Assembly: GCA_043806935.1 (NCBI GenBank)
Contig: JAZDGP010000004.1
Coordinates: 1 to 43,833 of the forward strand
Source: a bacterium
GTDB lineage: Bacteria; Patescibacteriota; Patescibacteriia; JAZDGP01
Direction of reading: 5' to 3'
Length of the DNA stretch: 43,833 bases
Shown here: piece by piece, positions 4,001 through 43,833 of the stretch
How the letters are laid out: the number at the start of each line of letters is the position of its first letter
How positions within the stretch are numbered: position 1 is the stretch's first letter
Notes under the pieces: generated by a model
Told to the model about the DNA's origin: nothing
What the model saw: only the letters and a program-made list of their open reading frames with translations
The model's database searches: none
Program-made: the position numbers and the translations under genes

Positions 4001-4258
4001 ATGGGAGAGACTAATTTCAACCGACGGCAATGTCTGCGGGCATTGCGTAGGCTTGGCTTTACGATTACTCATGCTCGTCATGGTCGTCATGATAAATATT
4101 ACCCGTCACTGGAGATTAGTCGTGGGTTAAGCGGCCAACAGTCAAAGTTTATTATGATTCCGCGCCATAATGAATTACGGTGTCAGTCTGAGATTCTGCA
4201 AGAGTTGCGGCAGATGGGTGGCGATCGTTTGGTTGCTAATTTTACGCAGTCTCTCTAA
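4001..4258 (+). CDS. hicA: HicA-like mRNA interferase toxin
   Basis: LRRLGF...HGRH...IPRH pattern, basic 85 aa, adjacent to HicB-like gene. Confidence 0.7.
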   Translation: MGETNFNRRQCLRALRRLGFTITHARHGRHDKYYPSLEISRGLSGQQSKFIMIPRHNELRCQSEILQELRQMGGDRLVANFTQSL

Positions 4259-4294
4259 TTTTATTTTGTTTCATTATAGTAGTATAATTTCCTT

Positions 4295-4546
4295 ATGAAA
4301 TTAAACAAACTAGGTTATTTAGGATTGTTGGGTTTTTTGGGAATTTGGGGATATTGGGTTCCTAATAAATTGCCGTTGTTTTATTTATTCTCTTTGTTTC
4401 TTTTAATGTTTTTGCCTGACTTTGGGCATTGCCGCCGTGGTTGTCTGCCATGCCACAGTAAACATTGCGTTTGCCAAACCGGCCAGTCTTGTGATTGCCA
4501 TTGCTGCGTTAAGGCAGTTAAAGATGAAAGTACTGTTTCTAAGTAG
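4295..4546 (+). CDS. small membrane protein with Cys/His-rich tail
   Basis: hydrophobic N-half then HCRRGCLPCHSKHCVCQTGQSCDCHCC; TATAAT 6 nt before ATG. Confidence 0.65.
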   Translation: MKLNKLGYLGLLGFLGIWGYWVPNKLPLFYLFSLFLLMFLPDFGHCRRGCLPCHSKHCVCQTGQSCDCHCCVKAVKDESTVSK

Positions 4547-4664
4547 TTGTTAGTTCTTGAATGATCGGCGCGTGAGTGTTGACAATACGTTTTAGACAGA
4601 TTAGGGTTAGGCCAAGAGTACAGCAAAGCAATGTCTTTGCTGGAATAACCAAGGAGGAATAGCT

Positions 4665-4856
4665 ATGAAACCATTTAACAGTTTATGGGAAAAATTGTCT
4701 TACGCCATTGTTTGTGGCTGGCATTCTTTTGCCAATAATAAAATCGTCAGGATCATTTGGGGTTGTTTGCTAGTAATTTTCGTGATGATCATCGGATGTA
4801 TAGTTGTTATTATCGCGTTAGGTGTTACTGTTAAGGATATAGTATTGGAAAGTTAA
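4665..4856 (+). CDS. 63-aa single-TM orphan
   Basis: TTGACA near 4579, AAGGAGG SD, long hydrophobic segment, terminator downstream. Confidence 0.7.
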   Translation: MKPFNSLWEKLSYAIVCGWHSFANNKIVRIIWGCLLVIFVMIIGCIVVIIALGVTVKDIVLES

Positions 4857-4924
4857 TACAAAAAGATGCCAATAACGATGGAATATGAAGATTGATATTT
4901 AAGGACGAAATGGTTCTTATTTTT

Positions 4925-4958
4925 AACAGCTGGTATAAATTTTACCAGCTGTTTTGTT
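4925..4958 (+). terminator. intrinsic terminator
   Basis: AACAGCTGGTA/TACCAGCTGTT stem plus T-tract. Confidence 0.7.
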
Positions 4959-4987
4959 TACTCTCTTAATTGTGAGATAATAAAAGC

Positions 4988-6406
4988 ATGATTCGTTTTG
5001 TTTCTTTAATGTTCGTTCTTTTTTTGCTTGCTCCATCTGTTAGAGCGGCTAATAGCCCTCTATCCGTTTCCTTTACAGGCTCGTCCAGCTTCAAGATCGG
5101 ACAGCAATGGAACCCAATGGATAAAGGAGTAGTCAATATGGAGCTTGTAAATACAAGTTCATCTACAATACAGAATATTACATGGTATTGGGCTATTATC
5201 CGTCCTGCTTATGTTTATTTTGAGCCAGTAGACGCTTTATACTTCTGCAGCGGCAGTTACCGCTTGGATGCTTTGGGACGTGGAGAAAGAAGGCGGTGGC
5301 CTTTAGCTTCCAACTGCCCTGTATTTTCAGCCAGCGGACCTTATACATTGACCAGTACTGTCGTGTCTTCTGACTTCAGCAAGGAGTTTAAGACAACGAT
5401 TACTGTCAGTCCGTCTTTTACAGCCAATGATTTGAAATTCTTTGGATCAGTGACAGTTAATCCTCCGCGACAGCCTATTAGGACTGGGGAGAGTATTAAC
5501 TTCGCGCAACGGTTTGATTTCCAGCCTTTGTTTGAGGATGCGCAGAAAGGGAAGTTTAGGAGCGGTTTGTATAATGGGAGCGATACACGCCAGCAGATAA
5601 CTCTTGATTTTGATCTGCTGGGTCCAGCAGGCGGATCTTTTTGCCAAGGAAGCGCTTACCCTACGATTGAGGCTAAAGGAATGATCTCTCGTATCAGCCA
5701 AGTGTTGTCTCTTTATAAGGATTGCGGAGTGATTAAACAAACAGGGAAGTGGACAGTTGTGTTGAAAGCAAAAGGAGATAAAGGAAGCGACCAGCTCAAA
5801 TCTGATATCTACGTTCTGCCTGGCAGTGAGACAGTAGGGTCAGGCAATGTTCCTGTGGGCCTTCCTTTGATCTTACAGTCTTTATCTGGCAGTAAGACAG
5901 TTTCTAAGGACAGCGACCGTGATGGAGATACTTTATCTGACTACGACGAAGTGTATGTCTGGAAGACTAATCCTGATAACCCTGACACTGATGGAGATGG
6001 CTATACGGATGGCTTGGAGGTGAGGAACCAGTACAATCCGTTGGGACCTGGCAAACTTATTCCCCGTCCAGTCTCTAAACGTTATGGCACAGTAGTCAAA
6101 ACAGCAAAAGAGATGGGAGTGTATTATGTAAGTGACGGAGTGAAGCGTGGATTCCCGTCAGCTGGAGTGTTTACCGCCTATGGATTTAAGTTCTCTGAAG
6201 TGAAAGTTGTGAGCCAGAAAGAGTTGGATAGTTACAAGACTGGCAGTATGGTTGGCTATCCAGTAGGGACAGTGGTGAAGGATAGCGACGGCAATTGGTA
6301 CAAGGTGGCTGGAGACTTGCGTTTAAAGCCAGTGAAGGGAAGTGGCGGAGTGCTTGTTAGCGACAAGGAGCTGCAGTTGTATAACGTTGATTACAGCAAA
6401 GACTAA
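4988..6406 (+). CDS. secreted/surface protein with Ca-binding DxDxDG (TSP3-like) repeats
   Basis: signal peptide; DSDRDGDTLSDYDE...DTDGDGYTDGLE motif. Confidence 0.8.
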   Translation: MIRFVSLMFVLFLLAPSVRAANSPLSVSFTGSSSFKIGQQWNPMDKGVVNMELVNTSSSTIQNITWYWAIIRPAYVYFEPVDALYFCSGSYRLDALGRGERRRWPLASNCPVFSASGPYTLTSTVVSSDFSKEFKTTITVSPSFTANDLKFFGSVTVNPPRQPIRTGESINFAQRFDFQPLFEDAQKGKFRSGLYNGSDTRQQITLDFDLLGPAGGSFCQGSAYPTIEAKGMISRISQVLSLYKDCGVIKQTGKWTVVLKAKGDKGSDQLKSDIYVLPGSETVGSGNVPVGLPLILQSLSGSKTVSKDSDRDGDTLSDYDEVYVWKTNPDNPDTDGDGYTDGLEVRNQYNPLGPGKLIPRPVSKRYGTVVKTAKEMGVYYVSDGVKRGFPSAGVFTAYGFKFSEVKVVSQKELDSYKTGSMVGYPVGTVVKDSDGNWYKVAGDLRLKPVKGSGGVLVSDKELQLYNVDYSKD

Positions 6407-36457: not shown

Positions 36458-37500
36458 AAATATTATTAGTCACTCTGGACTATCCGCCACAGTTTGGAGG
36501 AGTGGGGAATTACTACCAGGATCTGGTGGAAACAATAGGCAGTGGCACAGTGGATGTCTGGCAGCCTCTAGCAGGGCATTGGCTGTCTTGGTTTGGCAAG
36601 TTCTGGCAGAAGAGCAGGCATTATGATCTGATATGGGTTGGACAGCTATTGCCAGTTGGGACTGTTGCTTGGCTATGTTGGCTGGCAGGAAGGTCTTCAT
36701 ACGTCATTTCCTTCCATGGCTTAGACATTGTCCTAGGTAACCGCAATCCGTGGAAGCGCTGGCTGTTCCGGCATATAGTGGCTGGAGCAAAAGCAGTTAG
36801 TTTTAATAGTAAGGCTACGGAAACGTTGTTTAAGGAGTATTATCCAGCAAATAAAGAGAGCGTTGTAGTCTATCCAGTGCCTCATACGCGCCCTGCCCAT
36901 GATTTAGACAAGCAGAAGGCAAAAGAGCTGTTGGGATTAGTTGGCAAGAAAGTGCTGTTGACTGTTGGCAGATTAGTGAGGCGTAAAGGACAGCGCCAGG
37001 TGGTTGAATTATTGCCTGATGTTTTAAAACAAGTTCCTAATTTGCAATACATATTGGTTGGACAAGGAAAAGAAGAAAAAGGAATACGGATGATTACAAA
37101 AGATTTAGGATTGGAAAATACCGTCCAGTTGCTTTTAAAGACCAATGACCAGGAATTATCTATTCTGTACACTGCTGCTGACGTGTTTATACTCCTTAAC
37201 CAGAATGATCCCAATGATCCGGAAGGGTTCGGCATTGTTTATCTGGAAGCAGCCAGATTTAGCCTTCCATCCATTGCTGGAGTAACTGGCGGAGTGGGAG
37301 AGGCTGTTGTTAGTGGAGAGACTGGGCTGATCGTTAATCCAGATGATAACCAAGCAGTGATGGAAGCTATAGTGAAATTGTTGACAAATGAAGAGTATGC
37401 CAAGCAGTTGGGAAATAAAGGTAGAGAACGGGCTGAACAGATGTTTAGTATAGAGACTGAAGCGGAGAAGATGAAGCAGTTATTTATACGGAGTATATGA
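36454..37500 (+). CDS. GT4 glycosyltransferase
   Basis: YPPQFGG, VGRLVRRKG, EGFGIVYLEA. Confidence 0.92.
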   Translation: MKILLVTLDYPPQFGGVGNYYQDLVETIGSGTVDVWQPLAGHWLSWFGKFWQKSRHYDLIWVGQLLPVGTVAWLCWLAGRSSYVISFHGLDIVLGNRNPWKRWLFRHIVAGAKAVSFNSKATETLFKEYYPANKESVVVYPVPHTRPAHDLDKQKAKELLGLVGKKVLLTVGRLVRRKGQRQVVELLPDVLKQVPNLQYILVGQGKEEKGIRMITKDLGLENTVQLLLKTNDQELSILYTAADVFILLNQNDPNDPEGFGIVYLEAARFSLPSIAGVTGGVGEAVVSGETGLIVNPDDNQAVMEAIVKLLTNEEYAKQLGNKGRERAEQMFSIETEAEKMKQLFIRSI

Positions 37501-38612
37501 ACAAACCGTATGACGTCATAATGCTGGCAATGAGTACCAGCGAGGACTGGGCAGGAGGGATTAACAATCGTAACTGGCAGGTGTTGAAGAGATTGCTGGA
37601 TAGAGACGATATACGACATGTATTGCTAGTGGATGTCTTGCCTTGGAGATTAAGAAGAACTGTGAAGTATTTGCTGTCTATTTTATTTTCTCCATCTTGT
37701 AAGATCTCTCATCCCAAGCTCATCCATTACCGTCCTCTTTGGTCTTGGATTAATTCTCATTGGGATTACAAAAAGATACAAGCTTTGGCGGAGCGTTATC
37801 ATTTTCAGAATGTGATCCTCTGGTCCTATCTGCCTATGTTTACCGACTATGGCCCATTGCGTTACGATTGTCTTGTCTTTGACATGGTGGATGATTGGAC
37901 TCACCATCCGAGCTATGGGAAGATTAAAAACAAGATAGAAGAAAGTTACTGCCAGCTGGAACAGAAAGCAAATGTAATCTTTGTGGTTAATGAAACATTA
38001 AAAAAGAAGTTTCCGTTAAGAATTGATATCCATTATCTTCCTAATGGAGTGGAAACAGAGCTGTTTGCAAAGGAGTATGAATGTCCAACTGTGTTGCGAG
38101 ATATACAACGTCCTATTATCGGGTACAGTGGCACTGTTCAAGAACGGTTTGACCAGGAGTTAGTGTATGAATCGGCTAAGAAGCATCCAGACTGGTCCTT
38201 TGTGATCCTAGGCTGGGTGTGGCGGGGCATTAACTTGGATAAATTAAGATCATTGCCTAATGTCCATTTCTTGGGACGGGTGGAGTACAAGGAGTTACCA
38301 ATGTTTATCAGGCAATGGTCAGTGGGGATTATTCCACATAAGCAGGATGCTTTTTACCATTCTAATGATCCTATGAAGCTTTATGAGTATTTGGCAGCTG
38401 GGTTGCCGGTAGTAACAACGGATAACGGCAGTCTGGAAGATTGGAAAGATGTAGTGAAGATTGCTAATGAGCCTGAGGAGTTTGTAAGAGCCATTGAAGA
38501 GGCAATAAGGGAAGATAATTGGGAGTTGAGGAAGGAACGGCAGAGATTGGTACAGCAAGCATCATGGGATAGGCGGGTGAGTGAGATGATGGAGTATATT
38601 AATTTCACATAA
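37497..38612 (+). CDS. GT-B glycosyltransferase (TuaH-like)
   Basis: DMVDD, PNGV, PMKLYEYLAAGLPVV. Confidence 0.9.
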   Translation: MNKPYDVIMLAMSTSEDWAGGINNRNWQVLKRLLDRDDIRHVLLVDVLPWRLRRTVKYLLSILFSPSCKISHPKLIHYRPLWSWINSHWDYKKIQALAERYHFQNVILWSYLPMFTDYGPLRYDCLVFDMVDDWTHHPSYGKIKNKIEESYCQLEQKANVIFVVNETLKKKFPLRIDIHYLPNGVETELFAKEYECPTVLRDIQRPIIGYSGTVQERFDQELVYESAKKHPDWSFVILGWVWRGINLDKLRSLPNVHFLGRVEYKELPMFIRQWSVGIIPHKQDAFYHSNDPMKLYEYLAAGLPVVTTDNGSLEDWKDVVKIANEPEEFVRAIEEAIREDNWELRKERQRLVQQASWDRRVSEMMEYINFT

Positions 38613-39022
38613 CGTTTCGGGATAGCCGAAGTTTGACCGTGGTATAATTTGCGAGTTAGCGCTCACCACTGCCAAATTTGGGTGAGCGAGCGTTAAGAAT
38701 AAAATTACTTTTTTACGTTTTCTATTTGCCTGTAATATTCTTCGCAACCCTCAATAAAGGAAGTAGAATTTCCAGAACAAGCATTGCCCGTCCTTTCTGC
38801 CCATTCATAACCCGCATAATGTCCACTATCAGCAGAATAGGGGTTGCCAATTTCAACTTTTTGCCCGTCATCCTCAATATAATAATCACTTGATTTATTT
38901 GATGAACAACCACTTAAAATTAAGACGGGCAAAAAAATTAATAGGGCAAGATACATTTTTTTCATATTGGTAGTAAAAAAGTAATTTTATTTAGCTCGTG
39001 AAACAGATACGCCGTGTTAGGC
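38607..39022 (-). mobile_element. attC-like element A with gene-containing side arm
   Basis: minus strand GCCTAAC...GTTATGT cores; internal stem; same layout as element B. Confidence 0.55.
38705..38965 (-). CDS. 86-aa lipoprotein
   Basis: lipobox LSGC; GHYAGYEWA...C.GNS.SF.EGC. Confidence 0.75.
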   Translation of the reverse strand: MKKMYLALLIFLPVLILSGCSSNKSSDYYIEDDGQKVEIGNPYSADSGHYAGYEWAERTGNACSGNSTSFIEGCEEYYRQIENVKK

Positions 39023-39036
39023 GATGTACATTTTAA

Positions 39037-39192
39037 TTATGCGACTCGTATAAACTGAATAATTACAAATAAGAACGCAATTGCCATCAGGACTACCGAT
39101 GCTACGATAGCAAATTTTAATGCTCCGTACTGCGTGAATGACCCAATTATTAATAATAAACAGAATAGTCCAATTAGTAAGAATAAAATCAT
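39037..39192 (-). CDS. 51-aa 2-TM cassette peptide (not in ORF track)
   Basis: MILFLLIGLFCLLLIIGSFTQYGALKFAIVASVVLMAIAFLFVIIQFIRVA fills the space between GTTAGGC and GCCTAAC cores. Confidence 0.65.
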   Translation of the reverse strand: MILFLLIGLFCLLLIIGSFTQYGALKFAIVASVVLMAIAFLFVIIQFIRVA

Positions 39193-39222
39193 AGCTTTAT
39201 ATTAATAATTAAAATGTATTTT

Positions 39223-39424
39223 GCCTAACGTCGGCGCGTATCTGAAGTCGCGAAATGAGTGAGGGTGTAAAATTCCGGTTACACCCGAACGAATGAGCGA
39301 TTTGGGTGAACCCTGCGCTGTCCATTTATCATTGTTTTACCACTGTCTGGTATTATTGGCAATCAACTATTAATTTAAAGGTTATTCATTTGGCGCAGGG
39401 TGAACCAGATACGCGCTGTTAGCT
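39223..39424 (-). mobile_element. attC-like element B
   Basis: minus strand AGCTAAC...GTTAGGC (GTTRRRY); arms GCGCGTATCTG/CAGATACGCGC. Confidence 0.7.
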
Positions 39425-39494
39425 GATGTATTCCTTTTCTTTTTTCCGACAGCAGTCGGAATTGTTTTAAAAAATTTTCAAATTTCTTTTTCCG

Positions 39495-39613
39495 TTTTGG
39501 ATTTTGGGCAGAGGGGTTAGGGGTGAATGCCCAAAATCCAAAATTCCTTATTTTCTTCAAATAAAAGGCAAAAAGGAAGGGGTTTAAGGGGAGGGAATTT
39601 TTGCCTTTTATTT
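39495..39613. repeat. two perfect 16-bp hairpins with GGGG-n-GGGG loops
   Basis: stems 39495-39510/39528-39543 and 39559-39574/39598-39613. Confidence 0.85.
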
Positions 39614-39698
39614 GGGTTTGATCCCTAAAACTTTTTGGTGGGGCTATTTAACGTGCTTTCGTTTTTACACAGCTCCGATGGAAATGTAAACTTAACAG

Positions 39699-41954
39699 TT
39701 ACTTATCAAATGTAATTATTTCCTGAGCTTTGTTGTAAATATAGATTTTATTATCTATATCCACACGATTTACTAACCAACCAAGCAACTCACATTGATG
39801 AACAAAATCATTTATTCTATTAACCCCATTAATTTCCTTTAATGTAACTACCAAACCAAAATTAATGCCGTCGTTACGTTTGTTCAACCTTTCTTTTGAT
39901 TTAATACTTAAACCCCACATACCTTTATCATAGACATCACGTGCTTGAACCCTGTCTGTAAGGATTTCATGTATATGTTTAGTATTATCCCACTTCCGGT
40001 AAAACTCCCTAGCGTTGCCTTCGTATATATAATGTTTTTCACCATCATCATTACTTTGATGATTTTTGTTTATAGACTTAATGCCTTTGCCTTTGATTCT
40101 GCCAAAATATATATCTAGTTCTGTGTTTGTGTAATCAACCCCTTGATTAATTGAACAACTGGGAAAATAACACAAGGTGGCTTTGGCAACGAAAGGATGT
40201 TTATTATTATAAGTTGGAACAGGTAAATTATAAGCATATGTATCCCACTTCTCAGAAATGCCACTAACGATAAACTTTATTTCATCATTATCAGCTTTTA
40301 TAATGTTTTCTATATTTTTAGGTACTATACCATGACCCACAAAAGGTGCTAATTTTGCATTATTATCAATACTGTCCCACCCAGCAGCAGCATCTACAAT
40401 TAGTGCTTTTGCGACTTCTCGGTTAAGTCCAAGGACTTCTATTAAATAAGCAATTTTTCGAGTTACCCATGGTGCTGCGTATGAAGTGCCGCTACACAGA
40501 CCTTCACCAGTTGGCGTGCAAACCTTAAGATAATCATTTTTATCACCACCATAGCTACTAACGTCTGGTTTATTAAAAAATGATAAAACTAACCCTTTTC
40601 TGGAATAGGTCGCTGGAGACCCTTTACTGTCTACCGAATTTACAACTACAGCATTAATTGAATCGGCGGGTGAGCCAATCATTTTTTCTACATTACTTTC
40701 ATTATCACGCTTATTAGTACCTGCTATTACAAAAATAACATTATTTTCGTATTGAATTTCATCTAATATCGCTGCTTCTGGTGATATAAAATTAGGATTA
40801 ATTTCTCTGTCGGATCCTAAAGATAAATTCCATACCTTTATATCAGGATTTGAAGTAACTATTTCTCTTATGGCCTTCATAATAGAAAAAGCACTATACT
40901 GTCCTTGCGCAGCTACGCCAAAATGTCTAACTCTAAATCTGCCACATCCATCATCTAGCTCTGGGTGAATAGTTGGCCCATCAACAATAATCGAACTTAC
41001 TGATGTTCCGTGAACATAATCTTTGGGCTCTGTAGGTATTTCGTCATTGATCATTTTTCTAAAATCCACCCATTCAGAAAAATATACTGATTTATCAAAT
41101 AAAGTATCTATCACGCCTACAATAGGTTCGTCTTTTGGTGGGTCTATTGTAGTTTTAGTTGAGTCGCTGTTTGTATTGTCAATAACATCTCCAAAACTTA
41201 GCTTAGATATATCTTCTGTCGACATTGCAATGAGATAGGGCGCTTTTTCTGACAAGAGCTTAATTTCATTTGGATATAAAAGCAAAGTAGTTTCACTTAG
41301 TATTTTATCAGGCTGAACATTTATACCGATCACTCTCATCAATTCAGTTAAAGCGACATCGGTTTTATATATTGTAATTATCGATCGATCGCTTGTATTC
41401 GCATTGTTATTTGGAACCTTAAAACCTTCTATGTAATGTGAATCTACAATTATATTTCGAAAATTTGTTTTTGTAATTCCATATGTCTCATACTTTATGT
41501 TTTTATCATTTAAACCACCAATCAAATCGTGGGTTATCTTTCCGTCAAATATTGTATCTAATAGATTTATACAGCCTTCTAATTTTTTAATTGTATCATG
41601 AATTACTTCTTCGCTAACATGATGTGTAATCACATGTTTTTTCGTCTCTTCATTGGCAAATCTCGCACCAACAACAGAATCGTTTACAGAACCACTGCTT
41701 GACAATAGTCCGCTTATCCTATTGCTTTTAGCGATAACGTCGATATAACAAACATCAATCAAGCAACCCTTGATAATATTTTGCCTAGCCCAATAAGTAG
41801 CTAGATCCTGAAGCTGCTTAACTAAAGATTTTAGTTTATCAGAATTTATAGCTGGGGAATTTTTAGGAACATTACGTGAACTTGGCGTACCACTATGTGG
41901 GCGTTCTTGAAGAGTTCCTTTTAATTGAAGTATATCGTTCATAATTTTAGACAT
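39699..41954 (-). CDS. ietS: S8 subtilisin-like protease, IetS-type
   Basis: triad VIDT, HGTSV, GTSYAAP; NLSLG; coupled to AAA ATPase. Confidence 0.85.
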   Translation of the reverse strand: MSKIMNDILQLKGTLQERPHSGTPSSRNVPKNSPAINSDKLKSLVKQLQDLATYWARQNIIKGCLIDVCYIDVIAKSNRISGLLSSSGSVNDSVVGARFANEETKKHVITHHVSEEVIHDTIKKLEGCINLLDTIFDGKITHDLIGGLNDKNIKYETYGITKTNFRNIIVDSHYIEGFKVPNNNANTSDRSIITIYKTDVALTELMRVIGINVQPDKILSETTLLLYPNEIKLLSEKAPYLIAMSTEDISKLSFGDVIDNTNSDSTKTTIDPPKDEPIVGVIDTLFDKSVYFSEWVDFRKMINDEIPTEPKDYVHGTSVSSIIVDGPTIHPELDDGCGRFRVRHFGVAAQGQYSAFSIMKAIREIVTSNPDIKVWNLSLGSDREINPNFISPEAAILDEIQYENNVIFVIAGTNKRDNESNVEKMIGSPADSINAVVVNSVDSKGSPATYSRKGLVLSFFNKPDVSSYGGDKNDYLKVCTPTGEGLCSGTSYAAPWVTRKIAYLIEVLGLNREVAKALIVDAAAGWDSIDNNAKLAPFVGHGIVPKNIENIIKADNDEIKFIVSGISEKWDTYAYNLPVPTYNNKHPFVAKATLCYFPSCSINQGVDYTNTELDIYFGRIKGKGIKSINKNHQSNDDGEKHYIYEGNAREFYRKWDNTKHIHEILTDRVQARDVYDKGMWGLSIKSKERLNKRNDGINFGLVVTLKEINGVNRINDFVHQCELLGWLVNRVDIDNKIYIYNKAQEIITFDK

Positions 41955-42993
41955 TTAGTTCTCTTGATACTTGGCTTTTGGAAACTCCCGTTAATATTTC
42001 TATCTCTCTAACTGTAAATCCGCTGTGCTGTAATTTTTTTAAATTTATCACATTGTCTTTAGAATATATTGACTCGTATAGCTTTTTTAAGTAATCATAT
42101 TCATTATTTGAATCACTAAATGCAAGTGCAGTTTTAATTATATTTTTTAAATCACCAGGATAAGGAATATGATCTAAAGTTAAAAGTATTTTTCTAAAAA
42201 GTCTCATATTACGACCAGCAAATTTAAATTTTGTTAAGAACTCATTTAATATAGACTCTGCAACTTCAATCAATTCTTCTTTGCTATACCTATTAAAATT
42301 TATAATCGAATCAAATCTTCTAAATAAAGCTTTGTCAAATTGCCCAAAAAGATTAGTGGTGGCTATAAGAACAATTTCATCACTTAATCCATCCAACCCT
42401 TTCAAAACAGAAGAAGTTACTCTTCCCATTTCTCGCAAATCATTAGAGTTAATTCTATCCAAAGCTATCGCATCTATCTCGTCAAACAAAATAATGACTT
42501 TTTCTGGTTGAGGTAATCTTCGCAACTCTGTAAAAACAGAAGCAATGTTTTTGGACGTTTGGCCAAGCTTGCTGTCCACGACACTATCAAAATCTATAGC
42601 ATATAAATCTCGTTCAAGAATACGAGCAATTTGCTTTGCCGTTTCAGTTTTACCTGTTCCGGGATCACCTTCAAATAAAAATTTATTAACTCCAATCTTG
42701 TGCCCAATTGAATTTATAACACCTACTATATCATTTTTTATAAGAGTGGGAAGTGGGAATGAATTTCCGCTAGCTAAATTTACTTTCGTAAAAAACGGAA
42801 GATTGTATTCATTATCCTGCGGTACAAAAGTATTAGCACCAGATAATAAAGCCATAATATATTGAGCCAATTCAGAATCTCCAGTAGAATCAAAATACCT
42901 AGCTATATCATAAGCCTCATTTTTAAAGCCTGATTCATTTTTTTCGGCATGGTATTTAATTAAATTCAAAATGTTTTTTTTACGCATACGCAC
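41947..42993 (-). CDS. ietA: AAA+ ATPase, IetA-type, with C-terminal HTH
   Basis: GDPGTGKT, LFDEIDA, ATTN, RRFD; TVREIEILTGVSKSQVSR. Confidence 0.85.
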   Translation of the reverse strand: MRMRKKNILNLIKYHAEKNESGFKNEAYDIARYFDSTGDSELAQYIMALLSGANTFVPQDNEYNLPFFTKVNLASGNSFPLPTLIKNDIVGVINSIGHKIGVNKFLFEGDPGTGKTETAKQIARILERDLYAIDFDSVVDSKLGQTSKNIASVFTELRRLPQPEKVIILFDEIDAIALDRINSNDLREMGRVTSSVLKGLDGLSDEIVLIATTNLFGQFDKALFRRFDSIINFNRYSKEELIEVAESILNEFLTKFKFAGRNMRLFRKILLTLDHIPYPGDLKNIIKTALAFSDSNNEYDYLKKLYESIYSKDNVINLKKLQHSGFTVREIEILTGVSKSQVSRELNV

Positions 42994-43263: not shown

Positions 43264-43833
43264 TTAACGATTTCCTTTCGCCCGATTGTGGGTCTTACAC
43301 AACATCTCACAATTTTTCGCTGAAGTAGCACCGCCCTTACTCCAAGCTGATACATGGTCTGCTTCCATTTCACCAAAACTCCAAACCTTTTCCTTATTAG
43401 CATCGTGTCCAACTGCACAAAGTGAACAATTTGATTTCTTTTTAGTTTCAGCTTCGCGAGTCTGCTTTTCATAAACAGCTCTTTTAGTTGGTTCGTCAAA
43501 AATACGAATATTAAGCAATTTTGTTTCGTTATTACCTCCCAAAATATACTCGAAAATCCCTTTTTTATCTTTAACAAAAAAGTCGCTATAGAGCTTGTGT
43601 ACAACGGTTGATACTTTAGATGGGTTATATGATTTTTTATGATACTCCTCGTAAAGTCGTCCCCACTCAAGCCCGCACATTTCGCTTTCTATGTCAGTAA
43701 ATACGCTAGATATCCAATCAATGACGGTGTTAAAATATTTTTTCAACTCATCAATATTTTTGTCTTTGCGATGTTTGCTCATGTAATCGCCAATATTGCC
43801 TTTACTTACCCAATCAAGAGCACATTCCAAAAA
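43264..43833 (-). CDS. HNH endonuclease, C-terminal part (runs off the window; possibly DUF262/GmrSD-type)
   Basis: CSLC...EADHVSAWSKGG.T...NCEMLCKTHNRAK. Confidence 0.85.
   Translation of the reverse strand, partial: FLECALDWVSKGNIGDYMSKHRKDKNIDELKKYFNTVIDWISSVFTDIESEMCGLEWGRLYEEYHKKSYNPSKVSTVVHKLYSDFFVKDKKGIFEYILGGNNETKLLNIRIFDEPTKRAVYEKQTREAETKKKSNCSLCAVGHDANKEKVWSFGEMEADHVSAWSKGGATSAKNCEMLCKTHNRAKGNR

What the first reader, a model, noticed from the sequence alone, without database searches (positions are those of the whole stretch)
38607..39430. attC-like elements with a branched side arm, one carrying a whole gene
Seen on the + strand, both elements read TAACGT..arm..GAAGT[stem]ATTT-GGGTGA[side hairpin]GAA(A/C)-CAGATACGC..GTTAG..GATGTA. 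In B the side arm (ACCCTGCGC/GCGCAGGGT) interrupts the palindrome GCGATTT|CAGATACGCGC and holds about 75 nt. In A the arm at the same position holds the 86-aa lipoprotein gene, closed by a perfect 19-bp inverted repeat (38698-38716/38973-38991). The outer arms of A do not match each other, implying exchange at the branch point as well as at GTT. Classical attC sites are shorter and gene-free, so this suggests a second cassette entry point or an attC-targeting non-autonomous element (IS1111-attC elements are the known precedent).
Basis: partly seen in the sequence, partly recalled or inferred. Interest (0 to 1): 0.8.

Follow-up and report, generated by a model that had tools for sequence, protein, structure and literature searches.

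The report
Gene-carrying branched integron-like recombination sites
The two elements are folded DNA recombination sites of an integron-like gene-cassette system, common in ultra-small (CPR) bacteria, whose hairpin arms can themselves hold whole genes, something not described for classical integrons.

Summary
B (39226-39421) is a canonical member of a large site family: TAAC-GTNN-[11-nt L'']-AAGT-stem1-ATTT-GGGTGA-stem2-GAAC-[11-nt L']-T-GTTA. It is a three-way junction with covarying helices. The side arm is a regular third helix, not an interruption.

These sites form arrays of co-oriented single-gene cassettes. The arrays lie next to a conserved attI-like motif and a short (about 270 aa) XerA/IntI-like tyrosine recombinase that lacks the IntI-specific insertion. 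A site model matched 77 of 151 genomes of the same class. Sites were present in 53 of 60 genomes with the recombinase and in 24 of 91 without it.

A (38610-39019) carries the lipoprotein gene in the loop of stem2. The same stem2 module occurs in 43 metagenome contigs. Of these, 29 could be parsed: 28 hold cargo genes (14 unrelated families) and one is empty. In 23 of the 29 the outer L arms still pair (0-1 mismatch in 11).

A itself is a chimera. Its left half belongs to one site type and its right half to another, and both types share the stem2 module. Arms and cargo reassort exactly at the arm bases.

The integron-like mechanism is inferred, not tested. How genes enter the arms is unknown.

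The parts
37497..38612 (+). Group-1 glycosyltransferase gene. Its TAA stop (38610-38612) overlaps the TAAC box of site A. This is the chromosomal border of the array, at the end away from attI.
   Evidence: ORF; Pfam Glycos_transf_1 and Glyco_trans_1_4; sequence
38610..38697 (+). Site A, left half: TAAC, GTTT, L'' CGGGATAGCCG (38618-38628), AAGT, stem1 (38633-38675), ATTT-GGGTGA, the 5' strand of stem2 GCGAGC, and the internal-loop strand GTTAAG.
   Evidence: R1 reads 38602-38707 as a degenerate site, 21.1 bits. L'' is 10/11 identical to the L'' of L010 and of L074, and the ATTTGGGTGAGCGAGC block is shared.
38698..38991 (-). Cargo of the stem2 arm: a perfect 19-bp inverted repeat (38698-38716 with 38973-38991) bracketing an 86-aa lipoprotein gene (38705-38965, lipobox LSGC).
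   Evidence: (I2); only a weak match to the EexN lipoprotein N-terminus; no Pfam family; metagenome contigs cover both arms but not the gene interior.
38992..39028 (+). Site A, right half: TA, the 3' strand of stem2 GCTCG, TGAAA, L' CAGATACGCCG (39004-39014), T, GTTA (39016-39019), GGCGATGTA. It belongs to a different site type from the left half.
   Evidence: 51 of 54 nt identical to the right half of the L151 site; L''/L' of A pair at 7 of 11.
39016..39229 (-). Short cassette with a 25-nt terminal inverted repeat (39016-39040 with 39205-39229) and a 51-aa hydrophobic ORF (39037-39192).
   Evidence: (I1), (no Pfam family)
39226..39430 (+). Site B, a canonical three-way-junction attC-like site with an 11/11 L stem, a 51-nt stem1, and a stem2 of 9 bp with a 74-nt loop.
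   Evidence: fold; R1, 62.3 bits, E about 1e-13; second copy on contig C34, 97.5% identical over 244 nt
39431..39698 (.). Spacer between B and the next gene, with two perfect palindromes (39495-39543 and 39558-39614) that have G-rich loops. This is a very abundant repeat in groundwater metagenomes.
   Evidence: I4, I7; summed contig depth in the thousands for 39454-39601
39699..42993 (-). Two-gene unit to the right of B inside the array: an S8 peptidase (39699-41954) and an AAA ATPase (41947-42993), distantly like the IteS/IteA anti-phage pair.
   Evidence: IteS 152 bits and IteA 121 bits, both far below the curated cut-offs.

Best explanation
Window 38610-39430 is the distal end of an integron-like cassette array in a small (0.7 Mb) CPR-type genome.

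The sites. The repeated elements are attC-like recombination sites that work as folded single-stranded DNA. The window's + strand is the strand that folds; it is the antisense strand of the cassette genes. Each site has:
- an R box (TAAC paired with GTTA) that can extend outwards;
- an asymmetric bulge (GTNN opposite T);
- a perfectly paired 11-bp L stem without extrahelical bases;
- a three-way junction with conserved single-stranded linkers (AAGT, ATTT-GGGYGA, GAAC) and two variable hairpin arms.

The enzyme. The partner is a short XerA/IntI-like tyrosine recombinase of about 270 aa that lacks the IntI-specific insertion. It is encoded divergently, next to a conserved attI-like motif (YTAAC|TCGTTWTAT). 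In this genome it lies on contig C19.

B and A. B is an ordinary member of the family. A is a site whose stem2 arm is loaded with a lipoprotein gene. The gene is bracketed by a long inverted repeat, which zips the cargo out of the way so that the two site halves can still meet. The gene therefore travels as part of the recombination site.

The arms are modular. The same stem2 module is found empty or loaded with many unrelated genes. Stem1 can be loaded as well. Arms and R/L frames reassort at the arm bases.

A is a chimera. Its left frame is of type CGGGMTAGCCG and its right frame of type CAGATACGCCG. It was probably made by one crossover within the shared stem2 module between two sites, and it is probably no longer foldable.

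Shown: the anatomy, covariation, array organisation, linkage to the recombinase, and the diversity of cargo.
Inferred: single-strand folding in vivo, catalysis by this recombinase, the crossover point, and how cargo enters the arms.
For: Anatomy and structure
- The fold of B reproduces the junction.
- 25 sites from 14 loci align to one architecture.
- Covariation: the L stem is 98.5% paired, with compensatory changes at 8 of 11 pairs. The base of stem1 is 100% paired, including an A-T/T-A swap (18 versus 7) and a G.T present in 25 of 25 sites. 0 of 500 shuffles reach the observed score, and shifting the register drops pairing to 30-46%.
- The invariant G.T would be an A.C mismatch on the gene-sense strand. 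The apical loops of short stem1 hairpins read GCGAAGC or GCGTAGC on the same strand.
- No Rfam family matches.

Unbiased check
- 87 of 122 left-half pattern hits have a contiguous 11-nt complement (at most 1 mismatch) followed by TGTT within 1.5 kb. Decoy targets gave 0.

Arrays
- Canonical sites were found in 17 of 20 fetched regions.
- In 53 of 56 inter-site segments the longest ORF lies on the same strand, antisense to TAACGT.

Recombinase
- No protein in the genome reaches the IntI cut-off.
- The C19 protein scores 193 bits on TIGR02249 (cut-off 265) in two stretches that skip model positions 179-236. It scores 201 bits on NF040815 (cut-off 220).
- Its PDB matches are XerA 5hxy (144 bits) and IntI4 2a3v (137 bits, in two stretches).
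- Homologues lie at the GTTA side of arrays, on the same strand, in L044-L048, L052 and L021.
- An attI-like motif lies between the last cassette and the recombinase gene in 7 loci, on C19, and at the end of the C1 array.
- In 29 of 33 CPR-type loci with at least 1 kb upstream of the recombinase, model R1 finds sites upstream on the + strand.
- Sites occur in 77 of 151 genomes of the class and the recombinase in 60 of 151. Sites are present in 53 of 60 genomes with the recombinase and in 24 of 91 without it.

Loaded arms
- 10 of the 87 intact sites are 231-800 nt long.
- Examples with L pairing of 10-11 out of 11 and a gene in stem2 or stem1 are given.
- The stem2 module of A was found in 43 metagenome loci, of which 29 could be parsed. 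28 hold cargo ORFs of 66-190 aa, 26 of them on the minus strand, falling into 14 BLASTP clusters. One is empty (L159). The L arms have 0 mismatches in 17, 1 mismatch in 6, and 3 or more in 6.
- The cargo proteins of A, L074 and L010 are unrelated to one another.
- The same HicAB pair sits in stem1 of sites with different L boxes.
- A cargo family of the arm slot also occurs as an ordinary cassette in L060, at 74% amino-acid identity.
- Breakpoints fall at TAAC, after GTT, and at the arm bases.

A as a chimera.
Against: - No experiment exists. Recombination, strand choice and the crossover point are all inferred by analogy with integrons.
- The recombinase lacks the insertion that is essential in classical IntI, and it scores about as well against Xer models.
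- 24 of 77 genomes with sites show no recombinase, and 7 of 60 genomes with the recombinase show no site. Draft assemblies and the search filters may account for this.
- The sites used for the model were chosen by L-stem complementarity, so the percentage paired in that helix is partly circular. The stem1 and stem2 results and one search are not.
- A does not fold as a site (7 of 11 L pairs). At this locus the arm cargo may simply be stranded.
- The 'empty' forms come from other organisms: one metagenome locus, plus contig joints at 88% likeness or more with 21-40 nt on the shorter side. They are not alleles of this locus.
- B and its copy on C34 stay identical for 15 nt beyond GTTA, so the exact crossover cannot be read from them.
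- Some record titles of the loci name non-CPR taxa (for example Gammaproteobacteria). I could not check these.
Confidence: 0.75

Rival explanations
1. The arms are true second and third entry points. The same recombinase, or a partner, exchanges cargo site-specifically at the base of the arm, for example at the conserved GTTAAG/TA internal loop of the stem2 module. One folded site would then offer several cassette slots.
For: - One conserved module holds 14 unrelated cargo families and also has an empty form.
- Cargo is co-oriented with the cassettes in 26 of 28 cases.
- Each cargo brings its own extension of the inverted repeat, which pairs beyond the conserved 12 bp.
- Breakpoints lie exactly at the arm bases.
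- The module carries a GTTA box next to a short helix, like the R box next to the L stem.
- One gene family occurs both as an ordinary cassette and as arm cargo.
Against: - The stem2 module has GTTA on one strand only, with TA opposite, so it has no paired R box.
- Loaded stem1 arms have no GTTA/TAAC at all.
- No circular or excised arm cargo was seen.
- The 37-43 nt blocks that are identical on both sides of the cargo would also permit plain homologous replacement.
Confidence: 0.3
2. Arm cargo and arms are swapped by homology-driven processes, not by a dedicated site. The processes would be RecA-type double crossover after DNA uptake, or template switching at hairpins. The conserved junction and stem sequences serve as homology arms. 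Chimeric sites such as A are by-products.
For: - Blocks of 24, 37 and 43 nt are identical and flank the differing stem1 and cargo in L136 versus L140.
- Chimeric or mismatched frames are common: 6 of 29 parsed loci have 3 or more L mismatches, as do A and L174.
- In classical chromosomal integrons, cassette replacement through natural transformation is reported (PMC12614218; I saw only the title and abstract, in the listings).
Against: - It does not explain how a new gene first becomes bracketed by a perfect inverted repeat at the apex of a hairpin.
- It does not explain why cargo is co-oriented.
- The junction linkers are short (4-10 nt) where the stem1 swaps occur.
Confidence: 0.35
3. The gene-bearing inverted repeat is a non-autonomous transposon (MITE-like, or targeting attC as IS1111-attC elements do) that inserts into attC hairpins and is moved by a transposase encoded elsewhere.
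For: - Terminal inverted repeats of 19-22 bp flank the cargo.
- The insertion position is fixed.
- Classical attC sites are known targets of IS1111-attC elements and of group IIC introns (recalled from memory, not taken from a call).
Against: - The cargo contains no transposase, and the nearby ORFs show no transposase family.
- The inner part of the repeat differs for every cargo and covaries.
- No target-site duplication is present.
- Stem1 cargo uses quite different repeats.
- The empty module is already a hairpin with the same outer stem.
Confidence: 0.08
4. A is not one loaded site. It is an ordinary cassette lying between two sites that each lost a complementary half by deletion.
For: - R1 reads 38602-38707 as a weak complete site ending in GTTAAG (21.1 bits).
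- The cargo begins with GTTA, as ordinary cassettes do.
Against: - The same GCGAGC-GTTAAG...TA-GCTCGC arrangement recurs in 29 parsed metagenome loci. In 23 of them the L'' and L' arms match with 0-1 mismatch across the cargo. Insertion into one site predicts this; paired deletions do not.
- The closing 'TTTAGC' is the conserved form of the module, not a decayed TAAC.
Confidence: 0.04
5. The three-way junction is a structured RNA, such as a 3' UTR element, ribozyme or antisense RNA, and not a DNA site.
For: Conserved junction nucleotides with covarying helices are also typical of functional RNAs.
Against: - No Rfam match.
- The conserved G.T and the GNA-type loops lie on the strand antisense to the genes.
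- The TAAC/GTTA boxes mark the exchange boundaries between unrelated genes.
- There is tight linkage to a tyrosine recombinase and an attI-like motif.
Confidence: 0.03

Closest known systems
Integron attC sites with a branched variable terminal structure (for example the Vibrio cholerae repeats) and sedentary chromosomal integrons
   Same: - Imperfect palindromes bounded by ...TAAC and GTTA...
- R and L stems separated by an unpaired spacer.
- A variable, sometimes branched distal structure. Bouvier 2009 (PMC2727003; passages read) describes the VTS as ranging from 3 nt to a complex branched structure.
- Arrays of short, co-oriented, mostly promoter-less single-gene cassettes.
- A divergent tyrosine recombinase next to an attI-like site.
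- Exchange boundaries at the GTT/AAC boxes.
   Different: - There are no extrahelical bases. The L stem is a contiguous 11 bp.
- The spacer is asymmetric, 4 nt opposite 1 nt.
- The junction linkers are conserved in sequence.
- The recombinase lacks the IntI-specific insertion and falls below the IntI model cut-off.
- About 1 site in 9 carries one or two whole genes inside its arms.
- Arms and frames reassort.
Archaeal integrons (Ghaly et al. 2022, PMC9668308)
   Same: Integron-type arrays found in metagenome-assembled genomes outside the classical phyla. My site model also hits a Micrarchaeota contig, L120, at 67 bits.
   Different: In the passages read, that paper states that archaeal IntIs carry the IntI-specific additional domain. 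The terms CPR and Patescibacteria do not occur in its text. The recombinases here lack the domain.
Inverted-integrase integrons of Spirochaetota
   Same: In non-CPR loci, such as the complete Brucepastera parasyntrophica genome (L127), sites of the same architecture lie downstream of a homologous recombinase and are co-directional with it. This is the orientation described as typical for spirochaete integrons (PMC9668308; PMC13323075).
   Different: The L127 recombinase also lacks the insertion (207 bits against a cut-off of 265) and has a 115-aa N-terminal extension. I did not test whether the published Treponema integrases belong to this family.
Xer-type recombinases: archaeal XerA, and the 'Cand' subgroup of Smyshlyaev et al. 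2021 (PMC8138268)
   Same: Best or near-best profile and PDB matches are to XerA. Close relatives pass NF040815, whose name is 'site-specific tyrosine recombinase/integron integrase'. That paper groups Xer-related recombinases of candidate phyla as 'Cand' (passage read).
   Different: The genome has a separate XerC/D-like protein on C50. The C19-type gene sits beside cassette arrays, not at a dif-like site. I did not test whether it belongs to the 'Cand' subgroup.
IS1111-attC elements and group IIC-attC introns (elements that target attC)
   Same: Foreign DNA found at a fixed place inside an attC-like site.
   Different: There is no transposase, reverse transcriptase or intron RNA. The cargo consists of ordinary small genes of many families. 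What these elements are is recalled from memory, not taken from a call.

Membership tests
Integron (intI + attI + attC cassette array) | The integrase is a tyrosine recombinase with the catalytic R, H-x-x-R, H and Y residues | tested here: met
   PF00589 at 148 bits. Columns R129, H218, R221, H244 and Y253 are invariant in 7 homologues.
Integron (intI + attI + attC cassette array) | IntI-specific additional domain around patch III (integrase passes the IntI model) | tested here: not met
   TIGR02249 scores 193 bits (cut-off 265) in two stretches that skip model positions 179-236. The protein is 269 aa. Relatives score 207-229 bits. The match to PDB 2a3v is split into two stretches.
Integron (intI + attI + attC cassette array) | attC: an imperfect palindrome with R''/R' boxes (RYYYAAC/GTTRRRY) and paired L''/L' boxes | tested here: met
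   TAAC and GTTA are invariant in 25 of 25 sites, and the L stem is 98.5% paired with 8 of 11 pairs compensatory. 87 of 122 left halves have a matching right half.
Integron (intI + attI + attC cassette array) | Extrahelical bases in the L stem, which direct strand choice and contact the IntI domain | tested here: not met
   L'' and L' are contiguous 11-nt complements with no bulged base. The only asymmetries are the 4:1 spacer and the junction.
Integron (intI + attI + attC cassette array) | attI next to intI, with the array running away from it and cassettes co-oriented | tested here: met
   The conserved motif YTAAC|TCGTTWTAT is found in 7 loci, on C19 and at the end of the C1 array. Sites lie upstream in 29 of 33 loci. 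53 of 56 cassette ORFs are on one strand. The function of the motif was not tested.
Integron (intI + attI + attC cassette array) | Integrase-catalysed excision and insertion of cassettes through the folded bottom strand | not testable with these tools
   There are only indirect hints: the G.T pair and the GNA loops lie on the antisense strand, and exchange boundaries fall at TAAC and after GTT.
IS1111-attC / other autonomous attC-targeting elements | The element encodes its own transposase or reverse transcriptase | tested here: not met
   The ORFs at 38705-38965 and 39037-39192 have no Pfam family. The cargo proteins are unrelated small proteins.
MITE-like non-autonomous transposon | Family-wide terminal inverted repeats and a target-site duplication | tested here: not met
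   The inner part of the repeat is specific to each cargo and covaries. No duplication flanks the cargo.
Xer/dif (including pdif-type modules) | 28-bp double-stranded sites with two 11-bp arms and a 6-bp spacer, alternating in orientation around modules | tested here: not met
   The sites are 70-200 nt structured palindromes, all in one orientation. The definition of pdif modules is recalled from memory.
Known RNA families (Rfam 15) | A match to a curated covariance model | tested here: not met
   For 38400-39800, no match has E below 0.27 and all are far under their gathering scores. There were 0 matches in 4 related loci.

The most novel reading that the evidence does not exclude
The three-way-junction site of this CPR integron-like system is a multi-slot recombination site. 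Besides the classical exchange at GTT, each hairpin arm is a cassette position serviced by the recombinase. Cargo, arms and R/L frames would then reassort at the branch point. This would be a second mode of cassette exchange. Because ordinary genes become bracketed by site halves, it could also be a route by which new cassettes are made. All of this would be run by an integrase that lacks the domain thought indispensable for integron recombination.
Probability: 0.3. Interest if true: 0.9.

Novelty: new variant of a known kind. Interest (0 to 1): 0.8.

Why it matters
1. It would extend integron-type gene capture to the candidate phyla radiation. Half of the sampled genomes of one class carry the sites. 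I found no description of this in the searched library. A 2026 permafrost study (PMC13323075; passage read) notes that most integron-like integrases in metagenomes lack recognisable attC sites and suggests that novel attC types exist. This family is a concrete candidate.

2. The recombinase insertion and the extrahelical bases of the site are both missing. In classical integrons these two contact each other. Their joint absence gives a natural experiment on what is minimally needed for recombination of folded single strands, and on how IntI arose from Xer-like enzymes.

3. Genes inside the recombination site, in a slot that holds many unrelated genes or none, are not part of the integron model. 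Tools that cap attC length would miss them (the size cap is recalled from memory). This bears on the long-standing question of how genes become joined to attC sites.

4. A cultured spirochaete (Brucepastera parasyntrophica, locus L127) has the same kind of site and recombinase, so the system can be tested at the bench.

Tried and rejected
- Hammerhead or other ribozyme reading of the junction. The linkers do not fit the hammerhead core (my own comparison, from memory), and Rfam gave nothing.
- The tRNA/tmRNA reading of the T-arm-like cargo in stem1 and stem2 loops. ARAGORN found 0 genes in 6 loci.
- A canonical IntI in this genome. No protein reaches the cut-off.
- A very loose palindrome scan was too noisy. 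I replaced it with stricter rules and a covariance model.
- The strict scan missed most sites in distant CPR lineages, where TAAC has drifted to CAAC or GTTA to GTTG. Model R1 recovered them.
- The whole-genome R1 search of the window's own genome listed C1, C32 and C34 but not B, which R1 scores at 62 bits when the window is searched directly. Counts from the genome search are therefore lower bounds.
- Expression. No RNA holder was listed.
- The runs hold only 5-8% of the sampled words, and no piece spans the stretch. They give no same-locus empty allele and no evidence of habitat.
- Homologues of the lipoprotein. 4 of 400 other genomes of the class have one, at 46-61% identity over part of the protein. 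The three contexts I looked at had no recognisable sites. This did not help to trace the origin of A.
- Reading the crossover point from B versus its copy on C34 and from the breakpoints. Boundaries appear at both TAAC and GTT, so the cassette phase remains inferred.


Full report

- B runs from TAAC (39226) to GTTA (39421). Its parts are an 11-nt L'' (39234-39244) that is perfectly complementary to L' (39406-39416), a first hairpin (39249-39299), the linker ATTT-GGGTGA, and a second hairpin (9-bp stem at 39310-39318 with 39393-39401, 74-nt loop).
- Folded as DNA, the + strand adopts exactly this three-way junction: -34.9 kcal/mol, z = -3.84, with 0 of 200 shuffles as good. The minus strand folds less well, z = -2.8.
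- A has the same order of parts. However, the second hairpin (GCGAGC/GCTCG) continues into a perfect 19-bp inverted repeat (38698-38716 with 38973-38991) that encloses an 86-aa lipoprotein gene on the minus strand.
- The L'' (38618-38628) and L' (39004-39014) of A pair at only 7 of 11 positions.
- One correction: the side arm of B does not interrupt a palindrome. It is the third helix of the junction.

**A family, not a curiosity.**

- The genome is 0.70 Mb in 51 contigs. It holds further copies:
  - a 97.5% identical copy of B on contig C34, followed by a third site;
  - two sites on C1, one of them a minimal 31-nt hairpin;
  - a weaker hit on C32.
- The left-half pattern TAACGT-N13-AAGT gave 8 hits in this genome against 0 for the reversed control. 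In other genomes of the same class it occurs in tight clusters, for example six within 4.6 kb in G024.
- I fetched 20 such regions. With a strict rule, 17 of them contained canonical sites.
- Aligned, 25 sites from 14 loci share one architecture: TAAC, GTNN, 11-nt L'', A(A/T)GT, stem1, A(T/A)TT-GGGYGRR, stem2, a short linker (often GAAC or GTAGC), 11-nt L', T, GTTA, and commonly NNNGATGTA.
- Pair counts on my stated structure:
  - 92.4% of cells are paired, against 72.5% in shuffles.
  - 0 of 500 shuffles reach the covariation score.
  - Register shifts pair only 30-46% of cells.
  - The L stem has compensatory changes at 8 of 11 pairs.
  - At the base of stem1, AAGT/ATTT alternates with ATGT/ATAT (18 versus 7), and a G.T pair is present in 25 of 25 sites.
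- The L-stem figure is partly circular, because sites were picked by that complementarity. As an unbiased check I took all 122 distinct left-half pattern hits in loci L005-L134.
  - 87 have a contiguous 11-nt complement (at most 1 mismatch) followed by TGTT within 1.5 kb.
  - Decoy targets gave 0.

**Which strand, and DNA or RNA.**

- In 53 of 56 inter-site segments the longest ORF lies antisense to the TAACGT strand.
- The invariant G.T would be an A.C mismatch on the gene-sense strand.
- Short stem1 hairpins end in GCGAAGC or GCGTAGC on the TAACGT strand. From memory, these are unusually stable DNA mini-hairpins.
- No Rfam family matches.
- The structure therefore belongs to the strand opposite the genes. 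This is the situation of the recombinogenic bottom strand of integron attC sites.

**The enzyme and the platform.**

- No protein in the genome reaches the IntI model cut-off.
- Contig C19 encodes a 269-aa tyrosine recombinase. It scores 193 bits on TIGR02249 (cut-off 265) in two stretches that skip model positions 179-236. It scores 201 bits on NF040815, 'site-specific tyrosine recombinase/integron integrase' (cut-off 220).
- Its best solved relatives are archaeal XerA (5hxy, 144 bits) and VchIntIA (2a3v, 137 bits, split in two).
- A separate XerC/D-like protein lies on C50.
- Homologues of the C19 protein (43-59% identity) lie beside the arrays in L044-L048, L052 and L021. They are always on the GTTA side and on the same strand.
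- Between the last cassette and the recombinase start there is a conserved motif, YTAAC|TCGTT(W)TAT..., in 7 loci, on C19 and at the end of the C1 array.
- Read on the gene-sense strand this is the classical layout: a divergent integrase, attI, then gene-attC units.
- With an alignment of seven recombinases I scanned one genome per species.
  - The best 80 loci are mostly titled as CPR lineages: Saccharibacteria, WWE3, Dojka-, Nomura-, Peregrini-, Moran-, Magasanik-, Wolfe-, Uhr-, Gracili-, Falkow- and Kuenenbacteria.
  - At about 40% identity there are also Spirochaetota, Nitrospirae and two DPANN-type archaea.
- A covariance model of the site (R1) scores B at 62.3 bits.
  - It finds sites upstream of the recombinase on the + strand in 29 of 33 CPR-type loci that have at least 1 kb upstream. 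The four without are L057, L080, L099 and L104. Two of these show degenerate sites by eye.
  - In 7 of 13 non-CPR loci the sites lie downstream on the other strand. This is the 'inverted integrase' layout. An example is the cultured Brucepastera parasyntrophica, whose recombinase also lacks the insertion.
- Among 151 genomes of the class, 77 have sites and 60 have the recombinase. Sites are present in 53 of the 60 with the recombinase and in 24 of the 91 without it. Related genomes are not independent, and draft assemblies lose repeats.

**Genes inside the site.**

- Of the 87 intact sites, 10 are 231-800 nt long.
- With the L arms still pairing at 10-11 of 11, they hold an ORF, on the cassette strand in all but one (L076), either in the stem2 loop (L050, L047, L074, L010, L014 and others) or in the stem1 loop (L035; a HicAB-like pair in L031 and L044). 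In each case the ORF is bracketed by a 13-22 bp inverted repeat that continues the arm.
- L074 and L010 share with A the stem2 base GC(G/A)AGC and the start of the repeat, (GT)TAAGAA(T)AAAATTA. Their cargo proteins are unrelated to each other and to the lipoprotein of A.
- I then scanned metagenome contigs for the 21-letter stem2 pattern and found 43 loci. In 29 of them I could find the closing half...TTTATT-TA-GCT(C/T)GC-GAAC-L'-T-GTT.
  - 28 hold cargo ORFs of 66-190 aa, 26 of them on the minus strand. They fall into 14 BLASTP clusters.
  - One, L159, is empty: the two repeat arms are adjacent.
  - The L'' that matches each L' lies 45-343 nt upstream, with 0 mismatches in 17 loci, 1 mismatch in 6, and 3 or more in 6.
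- The other 14 loci were cut by contig ends or use variant closings.
- Some sites carry cargo in both arms (L151, L174).
- One cargo family of the arm slot also occurs, at 74% amino-acid identity, as an ordinary inter-site cassette in L060.
- Contigs from four groundwater metagenomes cover both arms of A's hairpin at high summed depth but not the gene interior. Contigs from 4 of 4 runs join 38711 to 38978, symmetrically about the centre of the hairpin. These are related sites in other organisms, not alleles of this locus.

**Modularity and the mismatch in A.**

- L136 and L140 share identical blocks of 24 nt (TAAC through AAGTT), 37 nt (ATTT through the start of the repeat) and 43 nt (end of the repeat through GTTA). 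They differ completely in stem1 and in cargo.
- In other pairs the identity starts exactly at TAAC, stops exactly after GTT, or stops at an arm base. One loaded stem1 module sits in frames with different L boxes.
- A fits this pattern.
  - Its right half is 51 of 54 nt identical to the right half of the L151 site, whose own L'' is CGGCGTATCTG.
  - Its left L'' is 10/11 identical to those of L010 and L074.
- A is therefore a chimera of two site types that share the stem2 module. A single crossover within that module between two tandem or incoming sites suffices to make it.
- I cannot tell whether that crossover was site-specific or homologous.
- With 7 of 11 L pairs, A is probably no longer a working site.

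**How it most likely works.**

- By analogy with integrons, the antisense strand folds. The recombinase binds the R and L helices and exchanges one strand at the TAAC/GTTA box. Cassettes are thereby excised and inserted at the attI-like site.
- The classical extrahelical bases and the IntI insertion that reads them are both absent. Strand choice would then have to come from the 4:1 spacer and the conserved junction.
- The long, perfect repeats around arm cargo would zip the cargo out so that L'' and L' still meet. This is consistent with the arms remaining complementary across 300-720 nt.
- Arm cargo thus rides inside the recombination site.
- All of this paragraph is inference.

**Comparison and novelty.**

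- Branched distal structures are known in large attC sites, and extrahelical bases are described as common to all known attC substrates (PMC2727003; passages read).
- Archaeal integrases are reported to carry the additional domain, and that paper does not mention CPR (PMC9668308).
- The IntegronFinder 2 paper does not contain the word Patescibacteria in the passages and term counts I saw (PMC9024848).
- A classification of tyrosine recombinases lists a Xer-related 'Cand' subgroup from candidate phyla. [quoted passage not shown]
- A 2026 study suggests that novel attC types may explain integron-like integrases that lack recognisable attC sites (PMC13323075).
- My searches for integrons or attC in CPR, and for genes within attC sites, returned no description of this system. 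The library lacks most subscription journals, and I saw no supplements.
- I therefore rate it as a new variant of a known kind. It is integron-like in organisation. It fails two defining membership tests (the integrase domain and the extrahelical bases). It adds gene-bearing, reassorting arms.

Noticed in passing
window 39454-39620: Two perfect palindromes (39495-39543 and 39558-39614) have G-rich loops such as GAGGGGTTAGGGGTGAA. They lie between the S8 peptidase gene and site B. In four groundwater metagenomes the summed contig depth here is in the thousands, so this is a very abundant repeat. A similar hairpin loop occurs in the Wolfebacteria locus L076.
   Followed up: partly
window 39699-42993: An S8 peptidase and an AAA ATPase, distantly like the IteS/IteA anti-phage pair (152 and 121 bits, far below the cut-offs of 900 and 510), lie to the right of site B inside the array. 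An HNH-domain gene follows at 43264-43833 and runs off the contig.
   Followed up: partly
L151 1170-1490; also L138, L142, L144, L154: The stem1 arms of several metagenome sites hold a roughly 330-nt module with three parts: a sigma-70-like promoter, a T-arm/acceptor-like 3' end (GGGGTTCRATACCCCTTRGCTCCAC), and a terminator hairpin. ARAGORN and Rfam call nothing. The same module sits in frames with different L boxes. A separate tRNA-like stretch lies in the stem2 loop of L035/L006.
   Followed up: partly
L031 and L044 (stem1 arms); L174: A HicA/HicB-like toxin-antitoxin pair (82-83% amino-acid identity between loci) is carried inside the stem1 arm of sites with different L boxes.
   Followed up: partly
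G000 contig C1 20400-22500 (minus strand); L151 2060-2120; L156; L043: Many cassettes share a conserved end of about 60 nt next to TAAC (...AAATTGCCAAAAAAATCTAAAAAA..AAGAAATTTCTGGCTATTTC.C.TAAC). They also share a matching start, GTTATGTGATGTAGCCAGAAA. This may be a common cassette leader or an extended outer stem.
   Followed up: no
G000 contig C19 (locus L003 271-1323): A Fic/DOC-family gene with a C-terminal HTH domain lies directly downstream of the recombinase gene.
   Followed up: no
G015:C4:130199-130221 (+) and 132778-132800 (-): Two identical left halves (TAACGTTTTGGCATATCTGAAGT) lie in opposite orientation 2.6 kb apart. This could be an inverted segment within an array.
   Followed up: no
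L041 (G066:C18) 4104-5946: The recombinase homologue next to this array is matched in two pieces about 1 kb apart. It may be interrupted or decayed.
   Followed up: no
Loci (for example L085, L091, L101): Several contigs that carry the CPR-type recombinase and upstream sites are titled Gammaproteobacteria, Pseudomonadales or Bdellovibrionales in their records. The labels may be unreliable, or the system may be more widely spread.
   Followed up: no
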